A stretch of DNA of 19,494 nt from a virus. Taxonomy: Duplodnaviria > Heunggongvirae > Uroviricota > Caudoviricetes. The notes below the pieces were generated by a model, which saw only the letters and a program-made list of their open reading frames with translations, had not been told where the DNA came from and did not search any database. Location: the IMG/VR virus record IMGVR_UViG_2534681658_000009; one strand, written 5' to 3'. Of this stretch, positions 1-19,494 are shown piece by piece (position 1 is the first letter of the stretch; the number at the start of each line of letters is the position of its first letter). Both the position numbers and the translations under genes were made by a program.

Positions 1-2409
<2,409 letters not shown>

Positions 2410-2429
<20 letters not shown>

Positions 2430-3309
2430 TCTCCCGCATATTGCCAGCATGGCCTTTAATGAGCCGCTGATGCTTGAACCCGCCTATGCGCGGGTTTTCT
2501 TTTGTGCGCTTGCAGGCCAGCTTGGGATCAGCCGCCTGACGGATGCGGTGTCCGGTGACAGCCTGACTGCCCAGGAGGCACTCGCGACGCTGGCGTTATC
2601 CGGTGATGATGACGGACCACGACAGGCCCGCAGTTATCAGGTCATGAACGGCATCGCCGTGCTGCCGGTGTCCGGCACGCTGGTCAGCCGGACGCGGGCG
2701 CTGCAGCCGTACTCGGGGATGACCGGTTACAACGGCATTATCGCCCGTCTGCAACAGGCTGCCAGCGACCCGATGGTGGACGGCATTCTGCTCGATATGG
2801 ACACGCCAGGCGGAATGGTGGCGGGGGCATTTGACTGCGCTGACATCATCGCCCGTGTGCGTGACATAAAACCGGTATGGGCGCTGGCCAACGACATGAA
2901 CTGCAGTGCAGGTCAGCTGCTTGCCAGTGCCGCCTCCCGGCGTCTGGTCACGCAGACCGCCCGGACAGGCTCCATCGGCGTCATGATGGCTCACAGTAAT
3001 TACGGTGCTGCCCTGGAGAAACAGGGTGTGGAAATCACGCTGATTTACAGCGGCAGCCATAAGGTGGATGGCAATCCCTACAGCCATCTTCCGGATGACG
3101 TCCGGGAGACACTGCAGTCCCGGATGGACGCAACCCGCCAGATGTTTGCGCAGAAGGTGTCGGCATATACCGGCCTGTCTGTGCAGGCTGTGCTGGATAC
3201 CGAGGCTGCAGTGTACAGCGGTCAGGAGGCCATTGATGCCGGACTGGCTGATGAACTTGTTAACAGCACCGATGCGATCACCGTCATGCGTGATGCACTG
3301 GATGCCTAA
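2410..3309 (+). CDS. C: Capsid assembly protease gpC (S49/ClpP-like), 299 aa; C-terminally truncated relative to the 439-aa lambda gpC because the Nu3-homologous region is in a different frame
   Basis: GTG at 2410 gives TAELRNLPHIASMAFNEPLMLEPAYARVFF..., the lambda gpC N-terminus, 20 nt inside the end of B. Frame ends DALDA then TAA at 3307..3309. In lambda the same frame continues through the Nu3 sequence. Confidence 0.85.
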
Positions 3310-3331
3310 ATCCCGTCTCTCAGGAGGGCGA

Positions 3332-3727
3332 ATGACCAAAGAGACTCAATCAACAACTGTTTCAGCCACTGCTTCGCAGACTGACGTTACTGACGTGGTG
3401 CCAGCGACGGAGGGCGAAAACGCCAGCGCGGCGCAGCCGGACGTGAACGCGCAGATCACCGCTGCGGTTGCGGCAGAAAACAGCCGCATTATGGGGATCC
3501 TCAACTGTGAGGAGGCTCACGGACGCGAAGAACAGGCGCGCGTGCTGGCAGAAACCCCCGGTATGACCGTGGAAACGGCCCGCCGCATTCTGGCCGCAGC
3601 ACCACAGAGTGCACAGGCGCGCAGTGACACTGCGCTGGATCGTCTGATGCAGGGGGCACCGGCACCGCTGGCTACAGGTAACCCGGCATCTGATGCCGTT
3701 AACGATTTGCTGAACACACCAGTGTAA
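3332..3727 (+). CDS. nu3: Capsid scaffolding protein Nu3
   Basis: ATG at 3332 preceded by caggaggg (RBS); MTKETQSTTVSATASQTDVTDVVPATEGENASAAQPDVNAQITAAVAAENSRIMGILNCEEAHGREEQARVLAETPGMTVETARRILAAAPQSAQARSDTALDRLMQGAPAPLATGNPASDAVNDLLNTPV matches lambda Nu3. It is in frame 2 while the C N-terminal part is in frame 1. Confidence 0.9.
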   Translation: MTKETQSTTVSATASQTDVTDVVPATEGENASAAQPDVNAQITAAVAAENSRIMGILNCEEAHGREEQARVLAETPGMTVETARRILAAAPQSAQARSDTALDRLMQGAPAPLATGNPASDAVNDLLNTPV

Positions 3728-3736
3728 GGGATGTTT

Positions 3737-4069
3737 ATGACGAGCAAAGAAACCTTTACCCATTACCAGCCGCTGGGCAACAGTGACCCGGCTCATACCG
3801 CAACCGCGCCAGGCGGATTGAGTGCGAAAGCGCCTGCAATGACCCCGCTGATGCTGGACACCTCCACCCGTAAGCTGGTTGCGTGGGATGGCACCACCGA
3901 CGGTGCTGCCGTTGGCATTCTTGCTGTTGCTGCTGACCAGACCAGCACCACGCTGACGTTCTACAAGTCCGGCACGTTCCGTTATGAGGATGTGCTCTGG
4001 CCGGAGGCTGCCAGCGACGAGACGAAAAAACGGACCGCGTTTGCCGGAACGGCAATCAGCATCGTTTAA
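3737..4069 (+). CDS. D: Capsid decoration protein gpD
   Basis: 110-aa product [43 protein letters not shown]... matches lambda gpD; same length as lambda D (333 nt). The track ORF starts two codons upstream at 3731. Confidence 0.95.
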
Positions 4070-4088
4070 CCTTACCCTTCATCACTAA

Positions 4089-4112
4089 AGGCCGCCTGTG
4101 CGGCTTTTTTTA
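4089..4112 (+). terminator. GC-rich hairpin plus T-run between D and E (terminator-like or mRNA-stabilising stem-loop)
   Basis: gccgc-ctgtg-cggc followed by an 8-T run directly after the D stop; E starts 13 nt later. Confidence 0.4.
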
Positions 4113-4124
4113 CGGGATTTTTTT

Positions 4125-5150
4125 ATGTCGATGTACACAACCGCCCAGCTGCTGGCGGCAAATGAGAAGAAATTTAAGTTTGATCCGCTGTTTCTGCGTC
4201 TCTTTTTCCGTGAGAGCTATCCCTTCACCACGGAGAAAGTCTATCTCTCACAAATTCCGGGACTGGTAAACATGGCGCTGTACGTTTCGCCGATTGTTTC
4301 CGGTGAGGTTATCCGCTCCCGTGGCGGCTCCACCTCTGAATTTACACCGGGATATGTCAAGCCGAAGCATGAGGTGAATCCGCAGATGACCCTGCGTCGC
4401 CTGCCGGATGAAGATCCGCAGAATCTGGCGGACCCGGCTTACCGCCGCCGTCGCATCATCATGCAGAACATGCGAGACGAAGAGCTGGCCATTGCTCAGG
4501 TCGAAGAGATGCAGGCAGTTTCTGCCGTGCTTAAGGGCAAATACACCATGACCGGTGAAGCTTTCGATCCGGTTGAGGTGGATATGGGCCGCAGTGCGGC
4601 GAACAACATCACACAGTCCGGCGGCACGGAGTGGAGCAAGCGTGACAAGTCCACGTATGACCCGACCGACGATATCGAAGCCTATGCGCTGAACGCCAGC
4701 GGCGTGGTGAATATCATCGTGTTTGATCCGAAAGGCTGGGCGCTGTTCCGTTCCTTCAAAGCCGTCAAGGAGAAGCTGGATACCCGTCGCGGCTCTAATT
4801 CCGAGCTGGAGACAGCGGTAAAAGACCTGGGCGAAGCGGTGTCCTATAAGGGGATGTATGGCGATACGGCGATCGTCGTGTATTCCGGACAGTACGTGGA
4901 AAACGACGTCAAAAAGAACTTCCTTCCGGACAACACGATGGTGCTGGGGAACACTCAGGCACGCGGTCTGCGCACCTATGGCTGCATTCAGGATGCGGAC
5001 GCACAGCGCGAAGGTATTAACGCCTCTGCCCGCTACCCGAAAAACTGGGTGACCACCGGCGATCCGGCGCGTGAGTTCACCATGATTCAGTCAGCACCGC
5101 TGATGCTGCTGGCTGACCCTGATGCGTTCGTGTCCGTACAACTGGCGTAA
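4125..5150 (+). CDS. E: Major capsid protein gpE
   Basis: MSMYTTAQLLAANEKKFKFDPLFLRLFFRESYPFTTEKVYLSQIPGLVNMALYVSPIVSGEV... matches lambda gpE; 341 aa as in lambda. The track ORF begins at an upstream ATG (4098); homology supports 4125. Confidence 0.95.
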   Translation: MSMYTTAQLLAANEKKFKFDPLFLRLFFRESYPFTTEKVYLSQIPGLVNMALYVSPIVSGEVIRSRGGSTSEFTPGYVKPKHEVNPQMTLRRLPDEDPQNLADPAYRRRRIIMQNMRDEELAIAQVEEMQAVSAVLKGKYTMTGEAFDPVEVDMGRSAANNITQSGGTEWSKRDKSTYDPTDDIEAYALNASGVVNIIVFDPKGWALFRSFKAVKEKLDTRRGSNSELETAVKDLGEAVSYKGMYGDTAIVVYSGQYVENDVKKNFLPDNTMVLGNTQARGLRTYGCIQDADAQREGINASARYPKNWVTTGDPAREFTMIQSAPLMLLADPDAFVSVQLA

Positions 5151-5152
5151 TC

Positions 5153-5174
5153 ATGGCCCTTCGGGGCCATTTTC
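5153..5174 (+). terminator. Short hairpin after E (atggccc-ttcg-gggccat, then T-rich); probable retroregulatory or partial terminator
   Basis: Perfect 7-bp inverted repeat with a 4-nt loop immediately after the E stop codon. Confidence 0.35.
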
Positions 5175-5191
5175 TCTCTGTGGAGGAGTTC

Positions 5192-5587
5192 ATGACGAAA
5201 GATGAACTGATTGCCCGTCTTCAGGTGCTGGGTGAGCAACTGAACCGTGATGTCAGCCTGACGGGGACGAAAGAAGAACTGGTGCTCCGTGTGGCAGAGC
5301 TGGAAGAGGAGCTTGATGACACGGATGACGCTGCCGGTCAGGACACATCTGTCAGCCCGGAAAATGCGCTGACCGGACATGAAAATGAGGTGGTATCAGC
5401 GCAGCCGGATACCGTGATTGATACGGCTGCTCTGGTCACGGTCGTGGCACTGGTGACGCTGCATACTGATGCACTTCACGCCACGCGGGATGAGCCTGTG
5501 GCATTTGTGCTGCCGGGAACGGCGTTTCGTGTCTCTGCCGGTGTGGCAGCCGAAATGACAGAACATGGCCTGGCCAGAATGCAATAA
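5192..5587 (+). CDS. FI: DNA packaging / head assembly protein FI
   Basis: MTKDELIARLQVLGEQLNRDVSLTGTKEEL... matches lambda gpFI; ggagg RBS before ATG 5192; one codon shorter than lambda FI (131 vs 132 aa). Confidence 0.9.
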   Translation: MTKDELIARLQVLGEQLNRDVSLTGTKEELVLRVAELEEELDDTDDAAGQDTSVSPENALTGHENEVVSAQPDTVIDTAALVTVVALVTLHTDALHATRDEPVAFVLPGTAFRVSAGVAAEMTEHGLARMQ

Positions 5588-5598
5588 CGGGAGGCGCT

Positions 5599-5952
5599 GT
5601 GGCTGATTCCGATAACCTGTTCGATGCTGCCATTGCCCGCGCCGATGAAACGATACGCGGGTACATGGGAACGTCAGCCACCATGACATCCGGTGAGCAG
5701 TCAGGTGCGGTGATACGTGGTGTTTTTGATGACCCTGAAAATATCAGCTATGCCGGACAGGGCGTGCGCGTTGAAGGCTCCAGCCCGTCCCTGTTTGTCC
5801 GGACTGATGATGTGCGGCAGCTGCGGCGCGGCGACACGCTGACCATCGGTGAGGAAAACTTCTGGATAGACCGGATTTCGCCGGATGATGGCGGAAGCTG
5901 TCATCTCTGGCTTGGGCGGGGCGTACCGCCTGCCGTTAACCGTCGCCGCTGA
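5599..5952 (+). CDS. FII: Head completion / head-tail connector protein FII
   Basis: 117-aa ORF (GTG start) MADSDNLFDAAIARADETIRGYMGTSATMTSGEQSGAVIRGVFDDPENISYAGQGVRVEG... matches lambda gpFII. Confidence 0.92.
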   Translation: MADSDNLFDAAIARADETIRGYMGTSATMTSGEQSGAVIRGVFDDPENISYAGQGVRVEGSSPSLFVRTDDVRQLRRGDTLTIGEENFWIDRISPDDGGSCHLWLGRGVPPAVNRRR

Positions 5953-5963
5953 AAGGGGGATGT

Positions 5964-6542
5964 ATGGCCATAAAAGGTCTTGAGCAGGCCGTTGAAAACC
6001 TCAGCCGTATCAGCAGAACGGCGGTGCCCGGTGCCGCCGCAATGGCCATTAACCGCGTTGCTTCATCCGCGATATCGCAGTCGGTGGCACAGGTTGCCCG
6101 TGAGACAAAGGTACGCCGGAAACTGGTAAAGGAAAGGGCCAGGCTGAAAAGGGCCACGGTCAAAAATCCGCAGGCCAGAATCAGGGTTAACCGGGGGGAT
6201 TTGCCCGTAATCAAGCTGGGTAACGCGCGGGTTGTCCTTTCCCGCCGCAGACGTCGTAAAAAGGGGCAGCGTTCATCCCTGAAAGGTGGCGGCAGCGTGC
6301 TTGTGGTGGGAAACCGTCGTATTCCCGGCGCGTTTATTCAGCAACTGAAAAATGGCCGGTGGCATGTCATGCAGCGTGTGGCCGGGAAAAACCGTTACCC
6401 CATTGATGTGGTGAAAATCCCGATGGCGGTGCCGCTTACCACGGCGTTTAAACAGAATATTGAACGGATACGGCGTGAACGTCTTCCGAAAGAGCTGGGC
6501 TATGCGCTGCAGCATCAACTGAGGATAGTAATAAAGCGATGA
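5964..6542 (+). CDS. Z: Tail completion protein Z
   Basis: 192-aa ORF, same length as lambda gpZ and matching in sequence; stop overlaps U start. Confidence 0.92.
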   Translation: MAIKGLEQAVENLSRISRTAVPGAAAMAINRVASSAISQSVAQVARETKVRRKLVKERARLKRATVKNPQARIRVNRGDLPVIKLGNARVVLSRRRRRKKGQRSSLKGGGSVLVVGNRRIPGAFIQQLKNGRWHVMQRVAGKNRYPIDVVKIPMAVPLTTAFKQNIERIRRERLPKELGYALQHQLRIVIKR

Positions 6543-6934
6543 AACATACTGAACTCCGTGCAGCCGTACTGGATGCACTGGAGAAGCATGACACCGGGGC
6601 GACGCTTTTTGATGGTCGCCCCGCTGTTTTTGATGAGGCGGATTTTCCGGCAATTGCCGTTTATCTCACCGGCGCTGAATACACGGGCGAAGAGCTGGAC
6701 AGCGATACATGGCAGGCGGAGCTGCATATCGAAGTTTTCCTGCCTGCTCAGGTGCCGGATTCAGAGCTGGATTCGTGGATGGAGTCCCGGATTTATCCGG
6801 TGATGAGCGATGTCCCGGCACTGTCAGATTTGATCACCAGTATGGTGGCCAGTGGCTATGACTACCGGCGCGACGATGATGCGGGCCTGTGGAGTTCAGC
6901 CGATCTGACTTATGTCATTACCTATGAAATGTGA
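6539..6934 (+). CDS. U: Tail terminator protein U
   Basis: 131-aa [57 protein letters not shown]... matches lambda gpU. Confidence 0.93.
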
Positions 6935-6941
6935 GGACGAT

Positions 6942-7682
6942 ATGCCTGTACCAAATCCAGTAATGCCGGTGAAAGGGGCCGGGACCACACTGTGGGTTTA
7001 TAAGGGGAGCGGTGACCCTTATGCGAACCCGCTTTCAGACGTTGACTGGTCGCGTCTGGCAAAAGTTAAAGACCTGACGCCCGGCGAACTGACCGCTGAG
7101 TCCTATGACGACAGCTATCTCGATGATGAAGATGCAGACTGGACTGCGACCGGGCAGGGGCAGAAATCTGCCGGAGATACCAGCTTCACGCTGGCGTGGA
7201 TGCCCGGAGAGCAGGGGCAGCAGGCGCTGCTGGCGTGGTTTAATGAAGGGGATACCCGTGCCTATAAAATCCGCTTCCCGAACGGCACGGTCGATGTGTT
7301 CCGTGGCTGGGTCAGCAGTATCGGTAAGGCGGTGACGGCGAAGGAAGTGATCACCCGTACGGTGAAGGTCACCAATGTGGGCCGTCCGTCAATGGCAGAA
7401 GATCGCAGTACGGTGACGGCGGCAACCGGTATGACTGTGACGCCTGCCAGCTCCTCGGTGGTGAAAGGGCAGAGCACCACGCTGACCGTGGCATTCCAGC
7501 CGGAGGGTGCAACTGACAAGAGCTTCCGTGCGGTGTCAGCGGATAAAACAAAAGCCACCGTGTCGGTCAGTGGTATGACCATCACCGTGAATGGCGTTGC
7601 TGCAGGTAAGGTCAACATTCCGGTCGTATCCGGTAATGGTGAGTTTGCTGCGGTTGCAGAAATCACCGTCACCGCCAGTTAA
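6942..7682 (+). CDS. V: Major tail tube protein V, with C-terminal Ig-like (Big_2) domain
   Basis: [50 protein letters not shown]... matches lambda gpV (246 aa from ATG 6942; track ORF starts upstream at 6912). C-terminal ...[30 protein letters not shown]... is the Ig-like domain. Confidence 0.94.
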
Positions 7683-7697
7683 TCCGGAGAGTCAGCG

Positions 7698-8120
7698 ATG
7701 TTCCTGAAAACCGAATCATTTGAACATAACGGTGTGACCGTCACGCTTTCTGAACTGTCAGCCCTGCAGCGAATTGAGCATCTCGCCCTGCTGAAACGAC
7801 AGGCAGAACAGGCGGGATCCAGTCTCAATCGACAGGTGAGCGTGGAAGATCTCGTCAGAACCGGTGCTTTTCTGGTGGCGATGTCCCTGTGGCATAGCCA
7901 TCCGCAGAAGACAAAGATGCCGTCCATGAATGAAGCCGTTAAACAAATTGAGCAGGAAGTGCTTACCACCTGGCCCACAGAGGCAATTGCTCAGGCTGAA
8001 AATGTGGTAATGCGTCTGTCCGGTATGTCTGAGTTTGTTGTGAATGATGCACCTGAACAGGCAGATGACGCCGGGCCAGCAGAGCCTGTTTCTGCGGGAA
8101 AGTGTTCGACGGTGAGCTGA
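7698..8120 (+). CDS. G: Tail assembly chaperone G
   Basis: 140-aa ORF MFLKTESFEHNGVTVTLSELSALQRIEHLALLKRQAEQ... matches lambda gpG; ends shortly after the slippery heptamer. Confidence 0.94.
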   Translation: MFLKTESFEHNGVTVTLSELSALQRIEHLALLKRQAEQAGSSLNRQVSVEDLVRTGAFLVAMSLWHSHPQKTKMPSMNEAVKQIEQEVLTTWPTEAIAQAENVVMRLSGMSEFVVNDAPEQADDAGPAEPVSAGKCSTVS

Positions 8121-8536
8121 GTTTTGCCCTGAAACTGGCGCGTGAGATGGGGCGACCCGACTGGCGCGCCATGCTTGCCGGGATGTCATCCACGGAGTAT
8201 GCCGACTGGCACCGCTTTTACAGTACCCATTATTTTCATGATGTTCTGCTGGATATGCACTTTTCCGGGCTGACGTACACCGTGCTCAGCCTGTTTTTCA
8301 GCGATCCGGATATGCATCCGCTGGATTTCAGTCTGCTGAACCGGCGCGAGGCTGACGAAGAGCCTGAAGATGATGTGCTGATGCAGAAAGCGGCAGGGCT
8401 TGCCGGAGGTGTCCGCTTTGGCCCGGACGGGAATGAAGTTATCCCTACTTCCCCGGATGTGGCGGACATGACGGAGGATGACGTAATGCTGATGACAGTA
8501 TCAGAAGGGATCGCAGGAGGAGTCCGGTATGGCTGA
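7698..8536 (+). CDS. T: Tail assembly chaperone G-T fusion, made by programmed -1 ribosomal frameshift at 8096..8102 (T-frame portion 8102..8536)
   Basis: The -1 frame after GGGAAAG reads VFDGELSFALKLAREMGRPDWRAMLAGMSSTEYADWHRFY..., matching lambda gpT; the T frame has no independent start with an RBS. Confidence 0.88.
8096..8102 (+). other. Programmed -1 frameshift slippery heptamer G_GGA_AAG (G/T recoding site)
   Basis: Heptamer GGGAAAG is phased as X XXY YYZ in the G frame, 6 codons before the G stop. Confidence 0.85.
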
Positions 8537-11108
8537 ACCGGTAGGCGATCTGGTCGTTGATTTGAGTCTGGATGCGGCCAGATTTGACGAGCAGATGGCC
8601 AGAGTCAGGCGTCATTTTTCCGGTACGGAAAGTGATGCGAAAAAAACAGCGGCAGTCGTTGAACAGTCAATGAACCGGCAGGCGCTGGCTGCACAGAAAG
8701 CGGGGATTTCCGTCGGACAGTATAAAGCCGCCATGCGTATGCTGCCTGCACAGTTCACCGACGTGGCCACGCAGCTTGCAGGCGGGCAAAGTCCGTGGCT
8801 GATCCTGCTGCAACAGGGGGGTCAGGTGAAGGACTCCTTCGGCGGGATGATCCCCATGTTCCGGGGGCTTGCCGGTGCGATCACCCTGCCGATGGTGGGG
8901 GCCACCTCGCTGGCGGTGGCGACCGGTGCGCTGGCGTATGCCTGGTATCAGGGCAACTCAACCCTGTCCGATTTCAACAAAACGCTGGTCCTTTCCGGCA
9001 ATCAGGCGGGACTGACGGCAGATCGTATGCTGGTCCTGTCCAGAGCCGGGCAGGCGGCAGGGCTGACGTTTAACCAGACCAGCGAGTCACTGACGGCGCT
9101 GGTGAATGCCGGTGTGCGTGGTGGTGAGCAGTTTGAGGCGATCAGCCAGAGTGTGGCGCGTTTCTCCTCTGCATCCGGCGTGGAGGTGGACAAGGTCGCT
9201 GAAGCCTTCGGGAAGCTGACCACAGACCCGACGTCGGGACTGACAGCGATGGCACGTCAGTTCCATAACGTGACGGCGGAGCAGATTGCGTATGTTGCTC
9301 AGTTGCAGCGTTCCGGCGATGAAGCCGGGGCATTGCAGGCGGCGAACGAGGCCGCAACGAAAGGGTTTGATGACCAGACCCGCCGCCTGAAAGAGAACAT
9401 GGGCACGCTGGAGACCTGGGCAGACAGGACAGCACGGGCATTCAAATCCATGTGGGATTCGGTGCTGGATATTGGTCGCCCGGACACTGCCCAGGGAATG
9501 CTGGAGAAAGCAGAAAAGGCTTTTGATGAGGCGGACAAAAAATGGCAGTGGTATCAGAGCCGGAGCCACCGGCGCGGTAAAACCTCAGCATTTCGTGCCA
9601 ATCTCCGGGGAGCATGGGAGGACAGAGCGAATGCGCAACTTGGACTTTCAGCCGCCACGTTGCAGGCCGATCTTGAAAAGGCCAGAGAGATGGCAGCAAA
9701 GGACTGGGCCGAGTCTGAGGCATCACGGCTGAAATATACCGAAGAGGCGCAGAAGGCTTACGAACGGCTGCAGACGCCGCTGGAGAAATATACCGCCCGT
9801 CAGGAAGAACTGAACAAGGCACTGAAAGACGGGAAAATCCTGCAGGCGGATTACAACACGCTGATGGCGGCGGCGAAAAAGGATTATGAAGCGACGCTGA
9901 AAAAGCCGAAACAGTCCGGCGTGAAAGTGTCTGCGGGCGATCGTCAGGAAGACAGTGCTCATGCTGCCCTGCTGACGCTTCAGGCAGAACTCCGGACGCT
10001 GGAGAAGCATGCCGGAGCAAATGAGAAAATCAGCCAGCAGCGCCGGGATTTGTGGAAGGCGGAGAGTCAGTTCGCGGTACTGGAGGAGGCGGCGCAACGT
10101 CGCCAGCTATCCGCACAGGAGAAATCCCTGCTGGCGCATAAAGATGAGACGCTGGAGTACAAACGCCAGCTGGCTGCACTTGGCGACAAGGTTACGTATC
10201 AGGAGCGCCTGAACGCGCTGGCGCAGCAGGCGGATAAATTCGCACAGCAGCAACGGGCAAAACGGGCCGCCATTGATGCGAAAAGCCGGGGGCTGACTGA
10301 CCGGCAGGCAGCGCGGGAAGCCACAGAACAGCGCCTGAAGGAACAGTATGGCGATAATCCTCTGGCGCTGAATAACGTCATGTCAGAGCAGAAAAAGACC
10401 TGGGCGGCTGAAGACCAGCTTCGCGGGAACTGGATGGCAGGCCTGAAGTCCGGCTGGAGTGAGTGGGAAGAGAGCGCCACGGACAGTATGTCGCAGGTAA
10501 AAAGTGCAGCCGCGCAGACCTTTGATGGTATTGCACAGAATATGGCGGCGATGCTGACCGGCAGTGAGCAGAACTGGCGCAGCTTCACCCGTTCCGTGCT
10601 GTCCATGATGACAGAAATTCTGCTTAAGCAGGCAATGGTGGGGATTGTCGGGAGTATCGGCAGCGCCATTGGCGGAGCTGTTGGTGGCGGCGCATCCGCG
10701 TCAGGCGGTACAGCCATTCAGGCCGCTGCGGCGAAATTCCATTTTGCAACCGGAGGATTTACGGGAACCGGCGGCAAATATGAGCCAGCGGGGATTGTTC
10801 ACCGTGGTGAGTTTGTCTTCACGAAGGAGGCAACCAGCCGGATTGGCGTGGGGAATCTTTACCGGCTGATGCGCGGCTATGCCACCGGCGGTTATGTCGG
10901 TACACCGGGCAGCATGGCAGACAGCCGGTCGCAGGCGTCCGGGACGTTTGAGCAGAATAACCATGTGGTGATTAACAACGACGGCACGAACGGGCAGATA
11001 GGTCCGGCTGCTCTGAAGGCGGTGTATGACATGGCCCGCAAGGGTGCCCGTGATGAAATTCAGACACAGATGCGTGATGGTGGCCTGTTCTCCGGAGGTG
11101 GACGATGA
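8529..11108 (+). CDS. H: Tail tape measure protein H (859 aa)
   Basis: Intact 859-aa ORF; N-terminus MAEPVGDLVVDLSLDAARFDEQMARVRRHF and C-terminus ...QTQMRDGGLFSGGGR match lambda gpH; coiled-coil-rich middle and Gly-rich C-terminal segment; overlaps T stop and M start. Confidence 0.93.
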   Translation: MAEPVGDLVVDLSLDAARFDEQMARVRRHFSGTESDAKKTAAVVEQSMNRQALAAQKAGISVGQYKAAMRMLPAQFTDVATQLAGGQSPWLILLQQGGQVKDSFGGMIPMFRGLAGAITLPMVGATSLAVATGALAYAWYQGNSTLSDFNKTLVLSGNQAGLTADRMLVLSRAGQAAGLTFNQTSESLTALVNAGVRGGEQFEAISQSVARFSSASGVEVDKVAEAFGKLTTDPTSGLTAMARQFHNVTAEQIAYVAQLQRSGDEAGALQAANEAATKGFDDQTRRLKENMGTLETWADRTARAFKSMWDSVLDIGRPDTAQGMLEKAEKAFDEADKKWQWYQSRSHRRGKTSAFRANLRGAWEDRANAQLGLSAATLQADLEKAREMAAKDWAESEASRLKYTEEAQKAYERLQTPLEKYTARQEELNKALKDGKILQADYNTLMAAAKKDYEATLKKPKQSGVKVSAGDRQEDSAHAALLTLQAELRTLEKHAGANEKISQQRRDLWKAESQFAVLEEAAQRRQLSAQEKSLLAHKDETLEYKRQLAALGDKVTYQERLNALAQQADKFAQQQRAKRAAIDAKSRGLTDRQAAREATEQRLKEQYGDNPLALNNVMSEQKKTWAAEDQLRGNWMAGLKSGWSEWEESATDSMSQVKSAAAQTFDGIAQNMAAMLTGSEQNWRSFTRSVLSMMTEILLKQAMVGIVGSIGSAIGGAVGGGASASGGTAIQAAAAKFHFATGGFTGTGGKYEPAGIVHRGEFVFTKEATSRIGVGNLYRLMRGYATGGYVGTPGSMADSRSQASGTFEQNNHVVINNDGTNGQIGPAALKAVYDMARKGARDEIQTQMRDGGLFSGGGR

Positions 11109-11434
11109 AGACCTTCCGCTGGAAAGTGAAACCCGGTATGGATGTGGCTTCGGTCCCTTCTGTAAGAAAGGTGCGCTTTGGTGATGGCTATTCTCAGCGA
11201 GCGCCTGCCGGGCTGAATGCCAACCTGAAAACGTACAGCGTGACGCTTTCTGTCCCCCGTGAGGAGGCCACGGTACTGGAGTCGTTTCTGGAAGAGCACG
11301 GGGGCTGGAAATCCTTTCTGTGGACGCCGCCTTATGAGTGGCGGCAGATAAAGGTGACCTGCGCAAAATGGTCGTCGCGGGTCAGTATGCTGCGTGTTGA
11401 GTTCAGCGCAGAGTTTGAACAGGTGGTGAACTGA
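11105..11434 (+). CDS. M: Tail tip protein M
   Basis: 109-aa ORF MKTFRWKVKPGMDVASVPSVRKVRFGDGYSQRAPAGLNANLKTYSVTLSV... matches lambda gpM; ATGA overlaps with H and L. Confidence 0.94.
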   Translation: MKTFRWKVKPGMDVASVPSVRKVRFGDGYSQRAPAGLNANLKTYSVTLSVPREEATVLESFLEEHGGWKSFLWTPPYEWRQIKVTCAKWSSRVSMLRVEFSAEFEQVVN

Positions 11435-12107
11435 TGCAGGATATCCGGCAGGAAACACTGAATGAATGCACCCGTGCGGAGCAGTCGGCCAGCGTGGTGC
11501 TCTGGGAAATCGACCTGACAGAGGTCGGTGGAGAACGTTATTTTTTCTGTAATGAGCAGAACGAAAAAGGTGAGCCGGTCACCTGGCAGGGGCGCAGTAT
11601 CAGGTATCCCATTCAGGGGACGGTTTGAACTGAAGGCAAGGCATCCGCCACCTGACGGTTTCTAACCTGTACGGATGGTCACCGGGATGGCGGAAGATCT
11701 GCAGAGTCTGGTCGGCGGAACGGTGGTCCGGCGTAAGGTTTACGCCCGTTTTCTGGATGCGGTGAACTTCGTCAACGGAAACAGGAGCCGATCCGGAGCA
11801 GGAGGTGATCAGCCGCTGGCGCATGAGCAGTGCAGCGAACTGAGGCGGTAGTGCCTCTTTGTACTGTCCACGCCGACGGAAACGGAGGCGCTGTTTTTCC
11901 GGGACGTATCATGCTGGCCAACACCTGCACCTGGACCTATCGCGGTGATGAGTGCGGTTATCACGGTCCGGCGTCGCGGATGAATATGACCAGCCGACGT
12001 CCGATATCACGAAGGATAAATGCAGCAAATGCCTGAGCGGCTGTAAGTTTCGCAATAACGTCGGCAACTTTGGCGGCTTCCTTTCCATTAACAAACTTTC
12101 GCAGTAA
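11434..12107 (+). pseudogene. L: Tail tip protein L, disrupted by multiple frameshifts (or sequence errors)
   Basis: The first 64 codons match the lambda gpL N-terminus, then a stop at 11626..11628. Later gpL segments lie in other frames: MVTGMAEDLQSLVGGTVVRRKVYARFLDAVNFVNGN from 11675 (frame 2), GAVFPGRIMLANTCTWTYRGDECGY around 11890 (frame 1), DITKDKCSKCLSGCKFRNNVGNFGGFLSINKLSQ up to the stop at 12105..12107 (frame 0). The locus is 674 nt, not a multiple of 3. Confidence 0.8.
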
Positions 12108-12111
12108 TCCC

Positions 12112-12852
12112 ATGACACAGACAGAATCAGCGATTCTGGCGCACGCCCGGCGATGTGCGCCAGCGGAGTCGTGCGGCTTCGTGGTGAGAACGCCGGAGGG
12201 GGAAAGATATTTTCCCTGCGTGAATATCTCCGGTGAGCCGGAGGCGTATTTCCGGATGGCTCCGGAGGACTGGCTGCAGGCAGAGATGCAGGGTGAGATT
12301 GTGGCACTGGTCCACAGTCATCCCGGTGGTCTGCCCTGGCTGAGTGAGGCTGACCGGCGGCTGCAGGTGCAGAGTGATTTGCCGTGGTGGCTGGTCTGCC
12401 GGGGGGCGATTCACAAGTTCCGCTGTGTGCCGCATCTCACCGGGCGGCGCTTTGAGCACGGGGTGACGGACTGTTACACGCTGTTCCGGGATGCTTATCA
12501 TCTGGCGGGGATTGAGATGCCGGATTTTCATCGCGGGGATGACTGGTGGCGTCACGGTCAGAATCTCTATCTGGATAATCTGGAGGCCACAGGGCTGTAT
12601 CAGGTGCCGTTGTCACAGCGCAGCCGGGCGATGTGCTGCTGTGCTGTTTTGGTTCATCGGTGCCGAATCATGCCGCCATTTACTGCGGCGACGGTGAGCT
12701 GCTGCACCATATTCCTGAACAACTGAGTAAACGAGAGAGGTATACCGACAAATGGCAGCGACGCACACACTCCCTCTGGCGTCACCGGGCATGGCACGCA
12801 TCTGCCTTTACGGGGATTTCAACGATTTGGCCGCCGCATCGACCTTCGGTGA
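12112..12852 (+). pseudogene. K: Tail tip assembly protein K (JAMM/MPN plus NlpC/P60 domains), frameshifted in the C-terminal half
   Basis: MTQTESAILAHARRCAPAESCGFVV... with JAMM motif HSHPGGLPWLSEAD (12313..12354) and DCYTLF segment in frame 1. Homology moves to frame 0 after about 12620 (LLCCFGSSVPNHAAIYCGDGELLHHIPEQLSKRERYTDKWQRRTHSLWRHRAW) and shifts again near 12820. Confidence 0.8.
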
Positions 12853-13392
12853 AAACGGGGCGAAGCCATCCGGGCGCTGGCCATGCAGATCCCGGCGTTT
12901 CGTCAGAAACTGAGCGACGGCTGGTACAGGTACGCATTGCCGGGCGTGATGCAGGTGAAACCGAATTGTCTGCCCGTCTTAATGAGCCGCTGGCAAATGG
13001 TGCCGTGATCCAATCGTGCCGCGTCTGGCGGGAGCTAAAAGTGGCGGTGTGTTTCAGGTGGTGCTGGGGGCGGCGTTATTGCGGTGGCATGGTGGAACCC
13101 TGTGGGCTGGCTGGGTGCCGCGGCTGTATCGGGCATGTATGCGGCAGGGGCCAGTATGATCCTGGGCGGAGTGGCGCAGATGCTGGCACCGAAAGCCAGG
13201 ACGCCCACGGCAGCAAGTACAGATAACGGCAAACAGAACACCTATTTCTCCTCACTGGATAACATGGTTGCCCAGGGCAATGTTCTGCCTGTTCTGTACG
13301 GTGAAATGCGCGTGGGGTCACGCGTGGTTTCTCAGGAGATCAGCACGGCAGACGAAGGGGATGGTGGTCAGGTTGTGGTGATTGGTCGCTGA
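12752..13392 (+). pseudogene. I: Tail tip assembly protein I, disrupted by multiple frameshifts
   Basis: ATG 12752 gives MAATHTLPLASPGMARICLYGD (lambda gpI N-terminus, frame 2), stop after about 50 codons. VQVRIAGRD... continues in frame 0, and the C-terminal ...ILGGVAQMLAPKARTP...DNGKQNTYFSSLDNMVAQGNVLPVLYGEMRVGSRVVSQEISTADEGDGGQVVVIGR is in frame 1, ending at 13392. Confidence 0.8.
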
Positions 13393-13452: not shown

Positions 13453-16400
13453 ATGGGTAAAGGCAGCAGTAAGGGGCATACCCCGCGCGAAGCAAAGGAC
13501 AACCTGAAGTCCACGCAGTTGCTGAGTGTGATCGATGCCATCAGCGAAGGGCCGGTTGAAGGTCCGGTGGATGGATTAAAAAGCGTGCTGCTGAACAGTA
13601 CACCGGTGCTGGACAGTGAGGGGAATACTAACATCTCTGGTGTCACGGTGGTGTTCCGGGCAGGTGAGCAGGAACAGACACCGCCGGAGGGATTTGAATC
13701 CTCCGGCTCCGAGACGGTGCTGGGTACGGAAGTGAAATATGACACGCCGATCACCCGGACCATCACGTCTGCAAATATCGACCGTCTGCGCTTTACCTTC
13801 GGTGTGCAGGCACTGGTGGAAACCACCTCAAAGGGGGACAGGAATCCGTCGGAAGTCCGCCTGCTGGTTCAGATACAACGTAACGGTGGCTGGGTGACAG
13901 AAAAAGACATCACCATTAAGGGCAAAACCACTTCACAGTATCTGGCCTCGGTGGTGGTGGATAACCTGCCGCCGCGCCCGTTTAATATCCGGATGCGCAG
14001 AATGACGCCGGACAGCACCACAGACCAGCTGCAGAACAAAACGCTCTGGTCGTCATACACCGAAATTATCGATGTGAAACAGTGCTACCCGAACACGGCA
14101 CTGGTCGGCGTGCAGGTGGACTCGGAGCAGTTCGGCAGCCAGCAGGTGAGCCGTAATTATCATCTGCGCGGGCGCATTCTGCAGGTGCCGTCGAACTATA
14201 ACCCGCAGACGCGGCAATACAGCGGTATCTGGGACGGAACGTTTAAGCCAGCATACAGCAACAACATGGCCTGGTGTCTGTGGGATATGCTGACCCATCC
14301 GCGCTACGGCATGGGGAAACGTCTTGGTGCGGCAGATGTGGATAAATGGGCGCTGTATGTCATCGGCCAGTACTGCGACCAGTCGGTGCCGGACGGTTTT
14401 GGCGGCACGGAGCCGCGCATCACCTGTAATGCCTACCTGACCACGCAGCGTAAGGCGTGGGATGTGCTCAGTGATTTCTGCTCGGCGATGCGCTGTATGC
14501 CGGTATGGAACGGGCAGACGCTGACGTTCGTGCAGGACCGACCATCAGATAAGGTGTGGACCTATAACCGCAGTAATGTGGTGATGCCGGATGATGGCGC
14601 GCCGTTCCGCTACAGCTTCAGCGCCCTGAAGGACCGCCATAATGCCGTTGAGGTGAACTGGATTGACCCGAATAACGGCTGGGAGACGGCGACAGAGCTT
14701 GTTGAAGATACGCAGGCCATTGCCCGTTACGGTCGTAACGTCACGAAGATGATGCCTTTGGCTGTACCAGCCGGGGGCAGGCGCACCGCGCCGGGCTGTG
14801 GCTGATTAAAACGGAACTGCTGGAAACGCAGACCGTGGACTTCAGCGTGGGTGCGGAAGGGCTTCGCCATGTACCGGGGGATGTCATTGAAATCTGCGAT
14901 GATGACTATGCGGGTATCAGCACCGGTGGGCGCGTGCTGGCGGTGAACAGCCAGACCCGGACGCTGACGCTCGACCGTGAAATCACGCTGCCATCCTCCG
15001 GTACCACGCTGATAAGCCTGGTTGACGGAAGTGGAATCCGGTCAGCGTGGAGGTCAGTCCGTCACCGACGGCGTGAAGGTAAAGTGAGCCGTGTTCCTGA
15101 CGGCGTTGCGATACAGCGTGTGGGGGCTGAAGCTGCCGACGCTGCGCCAGCGCCTGTTCCGCTGCGTGAGTATCCGTGAGAACGATGACGGCACGTATGC
15201 CATCACCGCCGTGCAGCATGTACCGGAAAAAGAGGCCATCGTGGATAACGGGGCGCACTTTGACGGCGACCAGAGCGGCACGGTGAATGGTGTCACGCCG
15301 CCAGCAGTGCAGCATCTGACCGCCGAAGTCACCGCAGACAGCGGGGAGTATCAGGTACTGGCCCGCTGGGATACGCCGAAGGTGGTGAAGGGCGTGAGTT
15401 TCATGCTTCGCCTGACCGTGGCAGCGGATGACGGCAGTGAGCGGCTGGTCAGCACAGCCCGGACGGCGGAAACCACATACCGCTTCACACAACTGGCGCT
15501 GGGGAACTACAGGCTGACAGTCCGGGCAGTAAATGCGTGGGGGCAGCAGGGCGATCCGGCGTCGGTATCGTTCCGGATTGCCGCACCGGCAGCACCGTCG
15601 CGGATTGAGCTGACGCCGGGCTATTTTCAGATAACCGCAACGCCGCATCTTGCGGTTTATGACCCGACGGTACAGTTTGAGTTCTGGTTCTCGGAAAAAC
15701 GGATTGCGGATATCAGGCAGGTTGAAACCAGCGCGCGTTATCTTGGTACGGCACTGTACTGGATAGCCGCCAGTATCAATATCAAACCGGGCCATGATTA
15801 TTATTTTTACGTTCGCAGTGTGAACACCGTTGGCAAATCGGCATTCGTGGAGGCTGTCGGTCAGCCGAGTGATGATGCATCAGGCTATCTGGATTTTTTC
15901 AAAGGCGAGATAGGGAAAACCCATCTGGCTCAGGAGCTGTGGACGCAGATTGATAACGGTCAGCTTGCGCCTGACCTGACTGAAATCAGGACGTCCATAA
16001 CGGATGTCAGCAATGAAATAACACAGACCGTCAATAAGAAACTGGAAGACCAGAGTGCAGCGATCCAGCAGATACAGAAGGTTCAGGTTGATACAAATAA
16101 TAACCTGAACAGCATGTGGGCAGTGAAGCTGCAGCAGATGCAGGACGGACGCCTTTATATTGCGGGTATCGGTGCCGGTATTGAGAACACCCCTGACGGC
16201 ATGCAGAGTCAGGTGCTGCTGGCGGCGGACAGGATTGCGATGATTAATCCTGCAAATGGCAACACAAAACCGATGTTTGTTGGTCAGGGTGATCAGATAT
16301 TCATGAATGACGTGTTCCTGAAACGCCTGACGGCTCCCACCATTACCAGCGGTGGAAATCCGCCGGCATTTTCCCTGACACCGGACGGAAAGCTGACCGC

Positions 16401-16944
16401 TAAAAATGCGGATATCAGTGGCAGTGTGAATGCGAACGCCGGGACGCTCAACAATGTCACGGTAAATGAAAACTGTACGATTAAGGGCATGCTGGAGGCG
16501 ACTCAGGTCAGAGGTGACTTCGTTAAAGCTGTATCCAAATCATTCCCGAAACAGGCTGGTACGTGGGGTAATACGGAAACACCAAACGGGACGGTTACAG
16601 TCACCATCAGCGATGATCATAACTTTGACCGTCAAATCATTATTCCGCCCATTATCTTTAACGGAATAGCGTATAGCGATCCGGGAAGTGGTAATAACCC
16701 GGGAGGTACAAGATACACGGGTTATGGTTTTGAAGTTCGCAAAAACGGCGTATTAATCGCATCCAGAGAAACTAAAGGGGCCATTCCCGGTAGTTACAGT
16801 GCAGTTATTGATATGCCGAGTGGCAGGGGAAGCGTCACTCTGGAGTTTAAGATTTTCCAGAAAGGCAATCAGGGGGCAGGCAATATCACCGACTGTACGG
16901 TGATTGTGACCAAAAAAGCCGCTTCCGGCATCAGTATTCGTTGA
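13453..16944 (+). pseudogene. J: Tail tip attachment protein / central tail fibre J, interrupted by frameshifts near 14750 and 15040..15120; the 3' 617 codons are intact
   Basis: Three consecutive ORFs in frames 1, 0, 1 (13453..14805, 14835..15179, 15091..16944) each carry successive gpJ-like sequence: MGKGSSKGHTPREAKDNLKSTQLLSVIDAISEGPVEGPVDG..., then ...AFGCTSRGQAHRAGLWLIKTELLETQTVDFSVGAEGLRHVPGDVIEICDDDYAGISTGG..., then [42 protein letters not shown]... to the stop. Confidence 0.85.
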
Positions 16945-16966
16945 AATATTTATAACCCCAATAAAG

Positions 16967-16992
16967 GGCGTCAGGAATGACGCCTTTTTTAT
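16967..16992 (+). terminator. Rho-independent terminator downstream of J
   Basis: ggcgtca-ggaa-tgacgcc stem-loop followed by tttttt att, 22 nt after the J stop. Confidence 0.7.
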
Positions 16993-17014
16993 TGCAGAAA
17001 AGCGAGAGGTAATT

Positions 17015-17678: not shown

Positions 17679-19494
17679 ATGGCAGTAAAGATTTCAGGTG
17701 TACTGAAAGACGGTGCAGGTAAACCGGTACAGAACTGTACAATCCAGCTGAAAGCAAAACGTAACAGCACCACGGTGGTGGCGAACACGGTGGCCTCAGA
17801 AAATCCGGATGAAGCCGGGCGTTACAGCATGGACGTTGAGTACGGTCAGTACAGCGTTATTCTGTTGGTGGAAGGCTTCCCGCCATCGCATGCCGGGACC
17901 ATCACCGTGTATGAAGACTCACAACCGGGTACGCTGAATGATTTTCTCGGTGCCATGACGGAGGATGATGTCCGTCCGGAGGCACTGCGCCGCTTTGAAC
18001 TGATGGTGGAAGAGGTGGCGCGTAACGCGTCCGCGGTGGCACAGAACACGGCAGCCGCGAAGAAGTCAGCCAGCGATGCCGGCACATCAGCCCGTGAGGC
18101 GGCAACCCATGCGACTGATGCTACAGGCTCAGCACGGCAGCCAGCACTCAGCCGGCAGGCCGCGCGTCGGCTCAGTCAGCTCTTCCAGCGCAGGAACGGC
18201 ATCAACAAAGGCCATGAAGCATCAAAAGTGCTGCGCTGCAGAGTCCTCAAAAAGCGCGGCAGCTACCAGTGCCGTGCGGCGAAAACGTCAGAAACGAATG
18301 CGGCAGCGTCACAAAATCGCAGCCACTTCTGCATCCGCCGCGACCACGAAGCGTCAGAAGCGCCACCTCAGCCCGGGATGCGGCGGCCTCAAAAGAGGCA
18401 GCGAAATCATCAGAAACGAACGCATCATCAAGCGCCAGTAGTGCCGCTTCCTCGGCAACGGCGGCAGGCAATTCCGCGAAGGCGGCAAAAACGTCGAGAC
18501 AACGCCAGGTCTTCTGAAACGGCAGCGGGACAGAGCGCCTCAGCTGCGGCAGGCTCAAAAACAGCGGCTGCGTCGTCTGCCAGTGCCGCATCAACAAGTG
18601 CCGGGCAGGCCTCAGCCAGTGCCACCGCTGCCGGAAAGTCGGCAGAAAGTGCCGCATCGTCTGCTTCAACAGCCACAACGAAGGCTGGCGAAGCCACTGA
18701 ACAGGCCAGCGCAGCAGCGAGGTCAGCTTCCGCAGCGAAGACATCCGAAACGAACGCGAAAGCGTCGGAAACCCGTGCAGAATCCTCAAAAACGGCTGCC
18801 GCATCGTCAGCCAGTTCGGCGGCGTCATCGGCATCATCGGCGTCTGCTTCAAAAGATGAGGCGACCATACAGGCGTCAGCAGCGAAGGGCAGCGCCACGA
18901 CGGCATCCACGAAGGCGACAGAGGCTGCTGGTAGTGCGACGGCAGCAGCTCAGAGCAAAAGTACGGCGGAATCTGCAGCAACGCGCGCTGAGACAGCGGC
19001 AAAACGGGCAGAGGATATTGCATCCGCCGTGGCGCTTGAGGATGCGAGCACGACGAAAAAGGGGATAGTACAGCTCAGTAGTGCGACTAACAGCACGTCT
19101 GAAACGCTGGCGGCAACGCCAAAGGCAGTAAAATCAGCCTATGACAATGCAGAGAAACGTCTGCAGAAAGACCAGAACGGCGCTGATATACCCGATAAGG
19201 GACGCTTCCTGAACAACATTAACGCGGTCAGTAAAACAGACTTTGCTGATAAGCGTGGTATGCGTTATGTGCGGGTTAACGCTCCTGCAGGTGCAACATC
19301 TGGAAAATATTACCCTGTTGTTGTTATGCGTTCTGCTGGCTCAGTAAGCGAACTGGCATCAAGGGTCATTATCACCACGGCAACGCGAACCGCAGGCGAT
19401 CCGATGAATAACTGCGAGTTTAACGGATTTGTTATGCCTGGTGGCTGGACTGACAGGGGGCGTTATGCTTATGGAATGTTCTGGCAATATCAAA
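17679..19494 (+). CDS. stf: Side tail fibre protein Stf, N-terminal 605 codons (3' end outside the window); an internal stretch of about 18110..18520 is frame-scrambled
   Basis: ATG 17679 gives MAVKISGVLKDGAGKPVQNCTIQLKAKRNSTTVVANTVASENPDEAGRYSMDVEYGQYSVILLVEGFPPSHAGTITVYEDSQPGTLNDFL..., matching the lambda Stf N-terminus. Frame 0 stays open to the window end, which is why the ORF is missing from the stop-delimited track. Downstream Ala/Ser/Thr-rich repeats and the KGIVQLSSATNSTSETLAATPKAVK motif are in frame. Confidence 0.8.
   Translation, partial: MAVKISGVLKDGAGKPVQNCTIQLKAKRNSTTVVANTVASENPDEAGRYSMDVEYGQYSVILLVEGFPPSHAGTITVYEDSQPGTLNDFLGAMTEDDVRPEALRRFELMVEEVARNASAVAQNTAAAKKSASDAGTSAREAATHATDATGSARQPALSRQAARRLSQLFQRRNGINKGHEASKVLRCRVLKKRGSYQCRAAKTSETNAAASQNRSHFCIRRDHEASEAPPQPGMRRPQKRQRNHQKRTHHQAPVVPLPRQRRQAIPRRRQKRRDNARSSETAAGQSASAAAGSKTAAASSASAASTSAGQASASATAAGKSAESAASSASTATTKAGEATEQASAAARSASAAKTSETNAKASETRAESSKTAAASSASSAASSASSASASKDEATIQASAAKGSATTASTKATEAAGSATAAAQSKSTAESAATRAETAAKRAEDIASAVALEDASTTKKGIVQLSSATNSTSETLAATPKAVKSAYDNAEKRLQKDQNGADIPDKGRFLNNINAVSKTDFADKRGMRYVRVNAPAGATSGKYYPVVVMRSAGSVSELASRVIITTATRTAGDPMNNCEFNGFVMPGGWTDRGRYAYGMFWQYQ
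18050..18960 (+). repeat. Low-complexity Ala/Ser/Thr-rich coding repeats of the Stf shaft
   Basis: Reiterated GCN/TCN/ACN codon runs encoding variants of SAAASSA / AAKTSETNA; they give stop-free ORFs in all frames on both strands. Confidence 0.7.

What the first reader, a model, noticed from the sequence alone, without database searches (positions are those of the whole stretch)
11434..13392. Tail tip genes L, K and I are each fragmented across all three frames
Over about 2 kb, three consecutive genes each have lambda-like peptide segments spread over two or three frames with premature stops. The flanking H (859 codons) and M are clean. The locus lengths are 25 nt shorter than in lambda for L, and the breaks are frequent, which looks like many 1-nt deletions. 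If real, the phage cannot build a tail tip and is defective. If artefactual, it marks a locally bad stretch of the assembly.
Basis: partly seen in the sequence, partly recalled or inferred. Interest (0 to 1): 0.65.

Follow-up and report, generated by a model that had tools for sequence, protein, structure and literature searches.

The report
Assembly artefact, not broken tail genes
The frameshifts in tail-tip genes L, K and I are really in this public contig, but they mark places where a draft assembly merged two slightly different prophage copies and dropped every base on which they disagreed, so this is very probably a data error and not a defective phage.

Summary
L (11434-12107) lacks 25 nt and is read in 14 pieces over three frames. 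K lacks 3 nt and I lacks 7 nt. H and M are clean. The same lesions also hit C/Nu3 (2 nt), J (6 nt) and stf (15 nt).

The window is the whole contig AQDL01000023.1 of ETEC strain 2860050. That draft was built from Illumina 100-bp reads with Celera Assembler.

Against 12 related prophages the contig has 56 private deleted bases and no private insertion. Of 40 deletion events, 37 sit exactly on columns that differ between natural alleles, against 14% of columns in those patches (p about 1e-28). In the densest cluster (11595-11675) the contig closely follows the positions on which two natural L alleles agree; one 17-column block matches exactly. Restoring the 56 bases gives intact L (232 aa), K (247), I (215), J (1165), C and stf, with no other lesion. 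No other public assembly shares the deletions.

Best explanation: two near-identical prophage copies, or a mixed sample, were co-assembled and the discordant alignment columns were called as gaps. Reads (SRR446790) were not examined, so this is strongly inferred, not proven. Interest is low.

The parts
11105..11434 (+). gene M (109 aa), intact
   Evidence: 100% identical to five references in alignment A1
11434..12107 (+). gene L, 674 nt instead of 699; 25 nt dropped; 14 segments over three frames
   Evidence: the repaired product is 232 aa and matches PF05100 over 1-206/206
11595..11675 (+). dense cluster in L: 17 nt lost in about 80 nt; close to the column-wise intersection of two natural L alleles
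   Evidence: the block CCAGTACGCGCCCCACG (allele A) against GTGCTGCCCGTCCGACA (allele B) agrees at TCCGCCAC, which is what the window carries; edit distance 5 to the A-B intersection, against 17-18 to the A, B and L007 alleles and 25 to L013.
12112..12852 (+). gene K; 3 nt dropped (12615/6, 12819/20, 12848/9); called product truncated to 204 aa
   Evidence: the repaired product is 247 aa with full Prok-JAB and NlpC/P60 domains
12752..13392 (+). gene I, overlapping the end of K; 7 nt dropped (12819/20, 12848/9, 12860-1, 12926/7, 13012/3, about 13074-8)
   Evidence: the repaired product is 215 aa and matches PF06805
12105..12106 (+). one A lost at the L stop codon / L-K spacer (TAAAT to TAAT), at an A/G polymorphic site; the stop codon is kept
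2410..3727 (+). gene C with nested Nu3; 2 nt dropped at about 3304-3307. References read C[A/G]C[A/G]; the window reads CC, so both polymorphic columns are missing.
13453..16944 (+). gene J, split into 450-, 114- and 592-aa calls by 6 dropped nt between 14750 and 15111
   Evidence: repaired product 1165 aa
17679..19494 (+). 5' part of side tail fibre gene stf, running off the contig end; 15 nt dropped between 18136 and 18501
   Evidence: the repaired frame is open to the contig end
8529..11108 (+). gene H, tape measure (859 aa), intact

Best explanation
The frameshifts are a consensus artefact of the draft assembly. The Illumina reads of ETEC strain 2860050 contained two slightly different versions of this lambda-like late region. 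Most likely these are two co-resident lambdoid prophages; a mixed sample is less likely. Celera Assembler merged the two versions into one 19.5-kb contig.

Where the versions agree, the consensus is correct. Where they differ, the alignment column was called as a gap and the base vanished. Each dropped base is a 1-nt 'deletion' and so a frameshift.

A likely route is that each mismatch was laid out as two staggered half-gap columns, neither of which reached a majority. That step is inferred.

Shown here: the lesions sit on inter-allele polymorphic sites, the dense cluster closely follows the intersection of two alleles, restoring the bases repairs every gene, the lesions are unique to this contig, and the sequencing platform and assembler are known. 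Inferred: that the two alleles are co-resident prophages, and the exact consensus mechanism. The true L, K, I, J, C and stf genes of the strain are probably intact.
For: (1) Source. The window is identical to NCBI contig AQDL01000023.1 of GCA_000354995.2, E. coli 2860050. Sahl et al. 2017 Table S1 lists this strain with AQDL00000000 and SRR446790. Their methods state Illumina HiSeq 2000 100-bp reads and Celera Assembler.

(2) Direction of the lesions. There are 56 private deleted nt and 0 private insertions against 12 related prophages. They cluster in four patches covering about 2.2 kb of the 19.5 kb.

(3) Position of the lesions. 37 of 40 deletion events lie exactly on columns that are polymorphic among the 12 references, against 13.9% of columns in the patches (binomial p = 1.2e-28). 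With +/-2 nt slack the p value is still 3e-12. By eye, the 18316 event also reduces to two polymorphic columns. The 11844 site is C/T in 100 IMG/VR contigs. The 14750 site has one variant contig.

(4) Intersection signature in 11595-11675. Keeping only the columns where allele A (L001 type) and allele B (L017/L018 type) agree reproduces the window. The best example is the 17-column block that reduces to TCCGCCAC. Edit distance to the intersection is 5, against 17-18 to A, B and L007 and 25 to L013. The smaller events at 3304, 11784 and 15109 are also reproduced exactly by dropping the polymorphic columns.

(5) Repair. Restoring the 56 columns gives L 232 aa, K 247, I 215, J 1165, C, and an open stf, with no nonsense codon or other frameshift. 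The repaired L, K and I have full-length Pfam matches.

(6) Codon position. 35 of 56 restored bases are at codon position 3 (p = 7.5e-6). That is expected if they mark mostly synonymous allele differences.

(7) Uniqueness. No complete E. coli genome among 5,426 shares the dense cluster; the best identity is 90.9%. A 41-mer across the cluster is absent from three collections. The fragment proteins each occur on a single contig among about 15 billion proteins. Ten contigs encoding the identical V protein all have L of 232 aa and uninterrupted K and I calls; J is whole in nine and split in one, L019.

(8) Plausibility. Two prophages in one genome (L017 and L018) show no differing columns between window positions 4000 and 13000 and differ only in patches. 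Collapse of near-identical repeats with correlated differences between reads is a documented mis-assembly class (Phillippy et al. 2008).
Against: Reads and depth were not examined, so the presence of two alleles in the data is inferred from the consensus alone.

No pair of alleles in my panel reproduces the full deletion set. The best pair for stf gives 12 of 15 deletions with 16 extra differences. The second allele must therefore be one I did not sample, or only some discordant columns were dropped.

The intersection match in the dense cluster is 5 edits short of perfect.

I found no documentation that Celera Assembler drops discordant columns; that step is my inference.

A mosaic-switch analysis showed no excess chimerism in the retained bases.
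Confidence: 0.9

Rival explanations
1. The pseudogenes are real. The prophage is decaying, and L, K, I, J, C and stf have accumulated genuine 1-nt deletions, so no tail tip can be built.
For: The deletions are in the deposited sequence and were annotated as fragments. Bacterial pseudogenes do show a deletion bias (general knowledge). Related ETEC prophages carry IS66-family insertions, so defective relatives exist.
Against: Neutral decay does not aim at sites that are polymorphic between alleles, yet 37 of 40 events are at such sites (p about 1e-28). L carries 25 deleted nt but essentially no private substitution outside the alignment-ambiguous cluster. There are no insertions, nonsense codons, large deletions or IS elements, and all ORFs are restored by refilling the columns. 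The intersection-of-two-alleles signature has no mutational explanation. The lesions are not shared by any other assembly.
Confidence: 0.03
2. This is a locally poor stretch of sequence: random base-calling or low-coverage indel errors, as in long-read, 454 or end-of-read Sanger data.
For: The errors are deletions only and are clustered, which resembles some platform error profiles.
Against: The data are Illumina 100-bp reads, which have very low indel error. Only 16 of 50 events touch a homopolymer run, so there is no obvious slippage-type bias; no chance expectation was computed. Random errors would hit polymorphic columns about 14% of the time, not 92%. Random errors would not reproduce the intersection of two alleles.
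Confidence: 0.03
3. The consensus artefact is the same, but the two alleles come from a mixed or contaminated culture, or a heterogeneous phage population, and not from two prophages in one chromosome.
For: Correlated differences between reads can also arise from heterogeneous samples (Phillippy et al. 2008). Nothing in the consensus separates the two sources.
Against: Complete E. coli genomes carry a median of 3 copies of this L-K-I region. One genome has two copies of this very prophage type that are identical over about 9 kb. The contig stops inside gene A and inside stf, which is what is expected where two chromosomal copies diverge; this last point is inference.
Confidence: 0.12

Closest known systems
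[quoted passage not shown]
   Same: Two diverged copies are placed in one contig. The differences between copies occur in runs. An overlap-layout-consensus assembler (Celera) was used. The contig is bounded by places where the copies would diverge.
   Different: Here the collapse is read only from the consensus, not from the reads. The discordant columns were removed, giving frameshifts, and not called by majority. I found no published description of that specific outcome.
Phage lambda tail-tip module M-L-K-I-J
   Same: The gene order is W-B-C/Nu3-D-E-FI-FII-Z-U-V-G-T-H-M-L-K-I-J-lom-stf. DNA identity to HK630, DE3 and other lambda-type phages is 95-97%. The repaired L, K and I match PF05100, PF14464 plus PF00877, and PF06805.
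   Different: Nothing biologically, once the dropped bases are restored. I is the 215-aa allele, not lambda's 223-aa allele.
Genuinely defective (cryptic) lambdoid prophages of E. coli
   Same: Frameshifted structural genes in a lambda-like late operon.
   Different: Such prophages typically carry IS insertions, large deletions and mixed mutation types that are shared by related strains (general knowledge; IS66-family examples). This contig has only 1-2 nt dropouts, at allele-polymorphic columns, and they are unique to one draft contig.

Membership tests
Mixed-allele (collapsed-repeat) consensus artefact | Lesions coincide with sites that differ between natural copies or alleles | tested here: met
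   37 of 40 events fall on polymorphic columns against a 13.9% background, p = 1.2e-28. Two further sites are polymorphic in IMG/VR contigs.
Mixed-allele (collapsed-repeat) consensus artefact | The consensus can be derived from two real alleles | tested here: met
   The dense cluster is close to the intersection of the L001-type and L017-type alleles: edit distance 5 against 17 or more to any single allele, with an exact 8-of-17 column match. No single panel pair explains all patches.
Mixed-allele (collapsed-repeat) consensus artefact | Removing the artefact restores normal genes with no other damage | tested here: met
   L 232, K 247, I 215 and J 1165 aa, with C and stf open. Pfam matches are full length.
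Mixed-allele (collapsed-repeat) consensus artefact | Raised read depth and two phased haplotypes in the reads | not testable with these tools
   Run SRR446790 was identified, but reads cannot be fetched or mapped here.
Mixed-allele (collapsed-repeat) consensus artefact | The assembly method builds its consensus from a read multi-alignment | tested here: met
   Celera Assembler on Illumina 100-bp reads, according to the source paper.
Lambda tail-tip genes L, K and I | Family domains and M-L-K-I-J synteny | tested here: met
   Pfam hits on the fragments and on the repaired proteins. Synteny matches annotated prophages and phages.
Decaying prophage pseudogenes | Mixed mutation spectrum: substitutions far outnumber indels, with insertions, nonsense codons, IS elements or large deletions | tested here: not met
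   56 deleted nt, 0 insertions, no nonsense codon after repair. At most about 4 genuine private substitutions in the L-K-I patch.
Decaying prophage pseudogenes | Lesions inherited by related genomes | tested here: not met
   Not present in 5,426 complete E. coli genomes. The fragment proteins occur on one contig only.
Platform indel error (454, Ion, long-read) | Homopolymer association, or an indel-prone platform | tested here: not met
   16 of 50 events lie in runs of 2 or more. The platform is Illumina HiSeq.

The most novel reading that the evidence does not exclude
The deletions are real and were made biologically at the mismatched positions of heteroduplex DNA formed by recombination between two co-resident, slightly diverged prophages. 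That would be a mismatch-targeted single-base excision without resynthesis. It would explain why the deletions sit on inter-allele polymorphic sites.
Probability: 0.01. Interest if true: 0.8.

Novelty: not a real feature. Interest (0 to 1): 0.07.

Why it matters
This has little biological importance. Its value is in data quality. A public draft genome (AQDL01, ETEC 2860050), and the protein fragments derived from it in nr (for example EMV95989.1, EMV96009.1 and EMV95997.1), misreport an apparently normal lambda-like tail module as a run of pseudogenes. Anyone scoring prophage intactness, pseudogene load or tail-protein diversity from this assembly would be misled. The same may hold for other Celera/Illumina drafts from the same project, though that was not tested here.

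The signature is easy to screen for: deletion-only frameshifts that fall on allele-polymorphic, mostly third-codon sites, in repeat-bounded contigs.

Tried and rejected
- An exact 41-mer across the dense cluster was searched in genome contigs, viral contigs and metagenome contigs. There were no matches, so no independent copy of the lesion exists in those collections.
- I looked for a clonal relative through exact proteins. H and portal B are unique to this contig. The K 5' segment has no 100% match in complete genomes; the best is 99.0%. The actual second allele therefore could not be recovered.
- I tried to reproduce every patch from one pair of panel alleles. This failed, with a best result of 12 of 15 for stf plus 16 extra differences. 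The second allele is unsampled, or the dropout is partial.
- I tested whether the retained bases are an unusually fine chimera of alleles. The contig needs 101 switches, against 65-126 for natural references. This is uninformative, so the uniqueness of H and B cannot be used as evidence.
- Literature searches for the accession and the strain number in main texts found nothing. The strain was found in a supplementary table.
- I considered and rejected long-read or Sanger low-quality error (the platform is Illumina), homopolymer slippage (16 of 50 events), and gap placement by the aligner. On the last point, the pairwise BLAST gives the same positions, and the enrichment survives +/-2 nt slack.

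Full report
**What the window is.** The 19,494-base window is identical to a whole public contig, AQDL01000023.1 of assembly GCA_000354995.2. The proteins called on it are named '[Escherichia coli 2860050]'. Supplementary Table S1 of Sahl et al. 2017 (PMC5469772) lists strain 2860050 as an ETEC isolate from Bangladesh, ST443, CS5+CS6, accession AQDL00000000, run SRR446790. The paper's methods state that the genomes of that study were sequenced as 100-bp Illumina HiSeq 2000 reads and assembled with Celera Assembler. The contig holds the late region of a lambda-like prophage. It begins in the 3' part of terminase gene A, then runs W, B, C/Nu3, D, E, FI, FII, Z, U, V, G, T, H, M, L, K, I, J, lom, and ends in the 5' part of stf. 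It is 95-98% identical to many E. coli prophages and lambda-type phages.

**Checking the observation.**
- M (11105-11434) and H (8529-11108, 859 aa) are intact.
- L (11434-12107) is 674 nt against 699 in relatives, so 25 nt short, and its reading frame is cut into 14 segments spread over all three frames.
- K (12112-12852) has lost 3 nt and I (12752-13392) has lost 7 nt. Both run through all three frames.
- One more A is lost at the L stop codon / L-K spacer.
- All lesions are 1-2 nt deletions in the pairwise alignment.

The scope needs correcting. The same lesions occur in C/Nu3 (2 nt near 3304-3307), J (6 nt between 14750 and 15111, splitting it into 450-, 114- and 592-aa calls) and stf (15 nt between 18136 and 18501). 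In total the contig has 56 private deleted bases and no private insertion against 12 related prophages. The 11 references other than L011 carry no scattered private 1-nt indels; L011 has four, all in its FI gene.

**What the deletions are.** The decisive feature is where they fall. In a five-reference alignment of the region, deletion after deletion sat on a column where the references disagree with each other. I formalised this on the 13-sequence alignment. Of 40 deletion events, 37 lie exactly on columns polymorphic among the references, against 13.9% of columns in the affected patches (binomial p = 1.2e-28). The positions are the same in a pairwise BLAST that knows nothing about polymorphism.

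Of the three remaining events:
- The event at 18316 resolves by eye into two polymorphic columns.
- The 11844 site is C/T in 100 IMG/VR contigs.
- The 14750 site has a single variant contig.

Small multi-base events are reproduced exactly by deleting the polymorphic columns:
- C[A/G]C[A/G] becomes CC at 3304.
- [C/T]GA[A/C] becomes GA at 11784.
- [C/T]G[G/A] becomes G at 15109.

**The dense cluster.** At 11595-11675, 17 nt are lost in about 80 nt. Most references are invariant there, but L017 and L018 carry a divergent natural allele. Keeping only the columns where the common allele and that allele agree reproduces the contig. For the block CCAGTACGCGCCCCACG against GTGCTGCCCGTCCGACA the agreeing columns spell TCCGCCAC, which is exactly what the window has. 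The edit distance from the window to this intersection is 5. It is 17-18 to the L001-, L007- and L017-type alleles and 25 to L013.

**Repairing the contig.** Refilling the 56 columns gives L 232 aa, K 247, I 215, J 1165, a full C and an open stf, with no nonsense codon or residual frameshift. The repaired L, K and I match Phage_tail_L, Prok-JAB plus NlpC/P60, and Lambda_tail_I over their full profiles. Of the 56 restored bases, 35 are at third codon positions (p = 7.5e-6), as expected for mostly synonymous differences between alleles.

**Explanation.** The simplest account is that the reads contained two slightly different versions of this late region. The assembler merged them, and the consensus step called the discordant columns as gaps.
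- Shown: the coincidence with polymorphic sites, the intersection signature, full reparability, and the platform and assembler.
- Inferred: the source of the second allele. Co-resident prophages are the likely source. Complete E. coli genomes carry a median of three copies of this L-K-I region. One genome, GCA_964047105.1, has two prophages of this very type with no differing columns between window positions 4000 and 13000 and differences only in patches. A mixed culture cannot be excluded.
- Also inferred: how gaps won the vote. A plausible route is that mismatches were laid out as two staggered half-gap columns, each with no more than half base support, after bubble merging. I found no documentation of this.

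Collapse of near-identical repeats, with correlated differences between co-assembled reads, is a documented class of mis-assembly (Phillippy et al. 2008).

**Rivals.**
- Real decay of the prophage fails on the spectrum. There are no insertions, no nonsense codons, no IS elements and almost no private substitutions in L beside 25 deleted bases. It also fails on targeting and on inheritance. No complete genome among 5,426 shares the cluster. The fragment proteins occur on one contig among about 15 billion proteins. Ten contigs with the identical V protein all have L of 232 aa and uninterrupted K and I calls, and nine have a whole J; L019 has J split.
- Random base-calling or low-coverage error fails because the reads are Illumina, only 16 of 50 events touch a homopolymer, and random errors would not pick polymorphic columns.
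- A biological process that deletes mismatched bases in recombination heteroduplex would fit the targeting. It has no precedent that I know of, and I give it about 1%.

**Limits.** I could not look at reads or depth. No pair of alleles in my panel reproduces all patches, so the second allele is unsampled or the dropout was partial. The intersection match is five edits short of perfect. H and the portal protein are unique to this contig, but a mosaic-switch analysis showed the contig is no more chimeric than natural relatives, so that uniqueness says nothing either way.

**Verdict.** The defective-phage reading is not supported. The feature is an assembly artefact with a specific, recognisable signature. 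Novelty: not a real feature. Interest is low. The only practical value is as a warning about this draft assembly, and possibly about sibling drafts. Mapping SRR446790 to the repaired contig would settle it.

Noticed in passing
window 8096-8102 (overlap of G, 7698-8120, and T, 8102-8536): The heptamer GGGAAAG sits in the G/T overlap. From my own knowledge, this is where lambda has its slippery site for the programmed -1 frameshift that makes gpGT. It appears conserved here.
   Followed up: partly
L011 (UGCI01000003.1, GCA_900449205.1), FI gene at locus 8264-8618; window-equivalent 5343-5607: Another public assembly has FI split into 59- and 76-aa calls. It carries four private 1-nt deletions that none of the 12 other aligned sequences has. 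This may be an unrelated assembly error or a real lesion.
   Followed up: no
L012 398-2983, L015 4001-6616, L016 20005 onward: Related ETEC prophages carry IS66-family insertions at different places: inside terminase gene A, inside C, and downstream of J. Genuinely disrupted relatives of this prophage therefore exist.
   Followed up: no
L017 and L018 (both from CAXJWX010000001.1, GCA_964047105.1): Two prophages of this type sit in one chromosome. They show no differing columns between window positions 4000 and 13000 and differ only in patches (C region, I, J, lom). Such a pair would be easy to collapse in a short-read assembly.
   Followed up: partly
window 828-2429 (portal B) and 8529-11108 (H): Both intact proteins are found on no other contig in the 153-billion-gene index. 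Yet apart from position 3306, itself an alignment artefact of the dropped C columns, every nucleotide of window 1-11,640 is seen in at least one of 12 references. The combination of variants is what is unique. A mosaic-switch test showed no excess chimerism over natural relatives.
   Followed up: yes
window 16488-16926 and 9503-9717: The 3' end of J did not align by BLAST to the best overall reference L001 and shows blocks of indels against it. G+C is 0.458 at 16501-17000, the lowest 500-nt bin in the window. A stretch of H shows 10-18 nt block indels between references. Both look like ordinary module or allele swaps.
   Followed up: no
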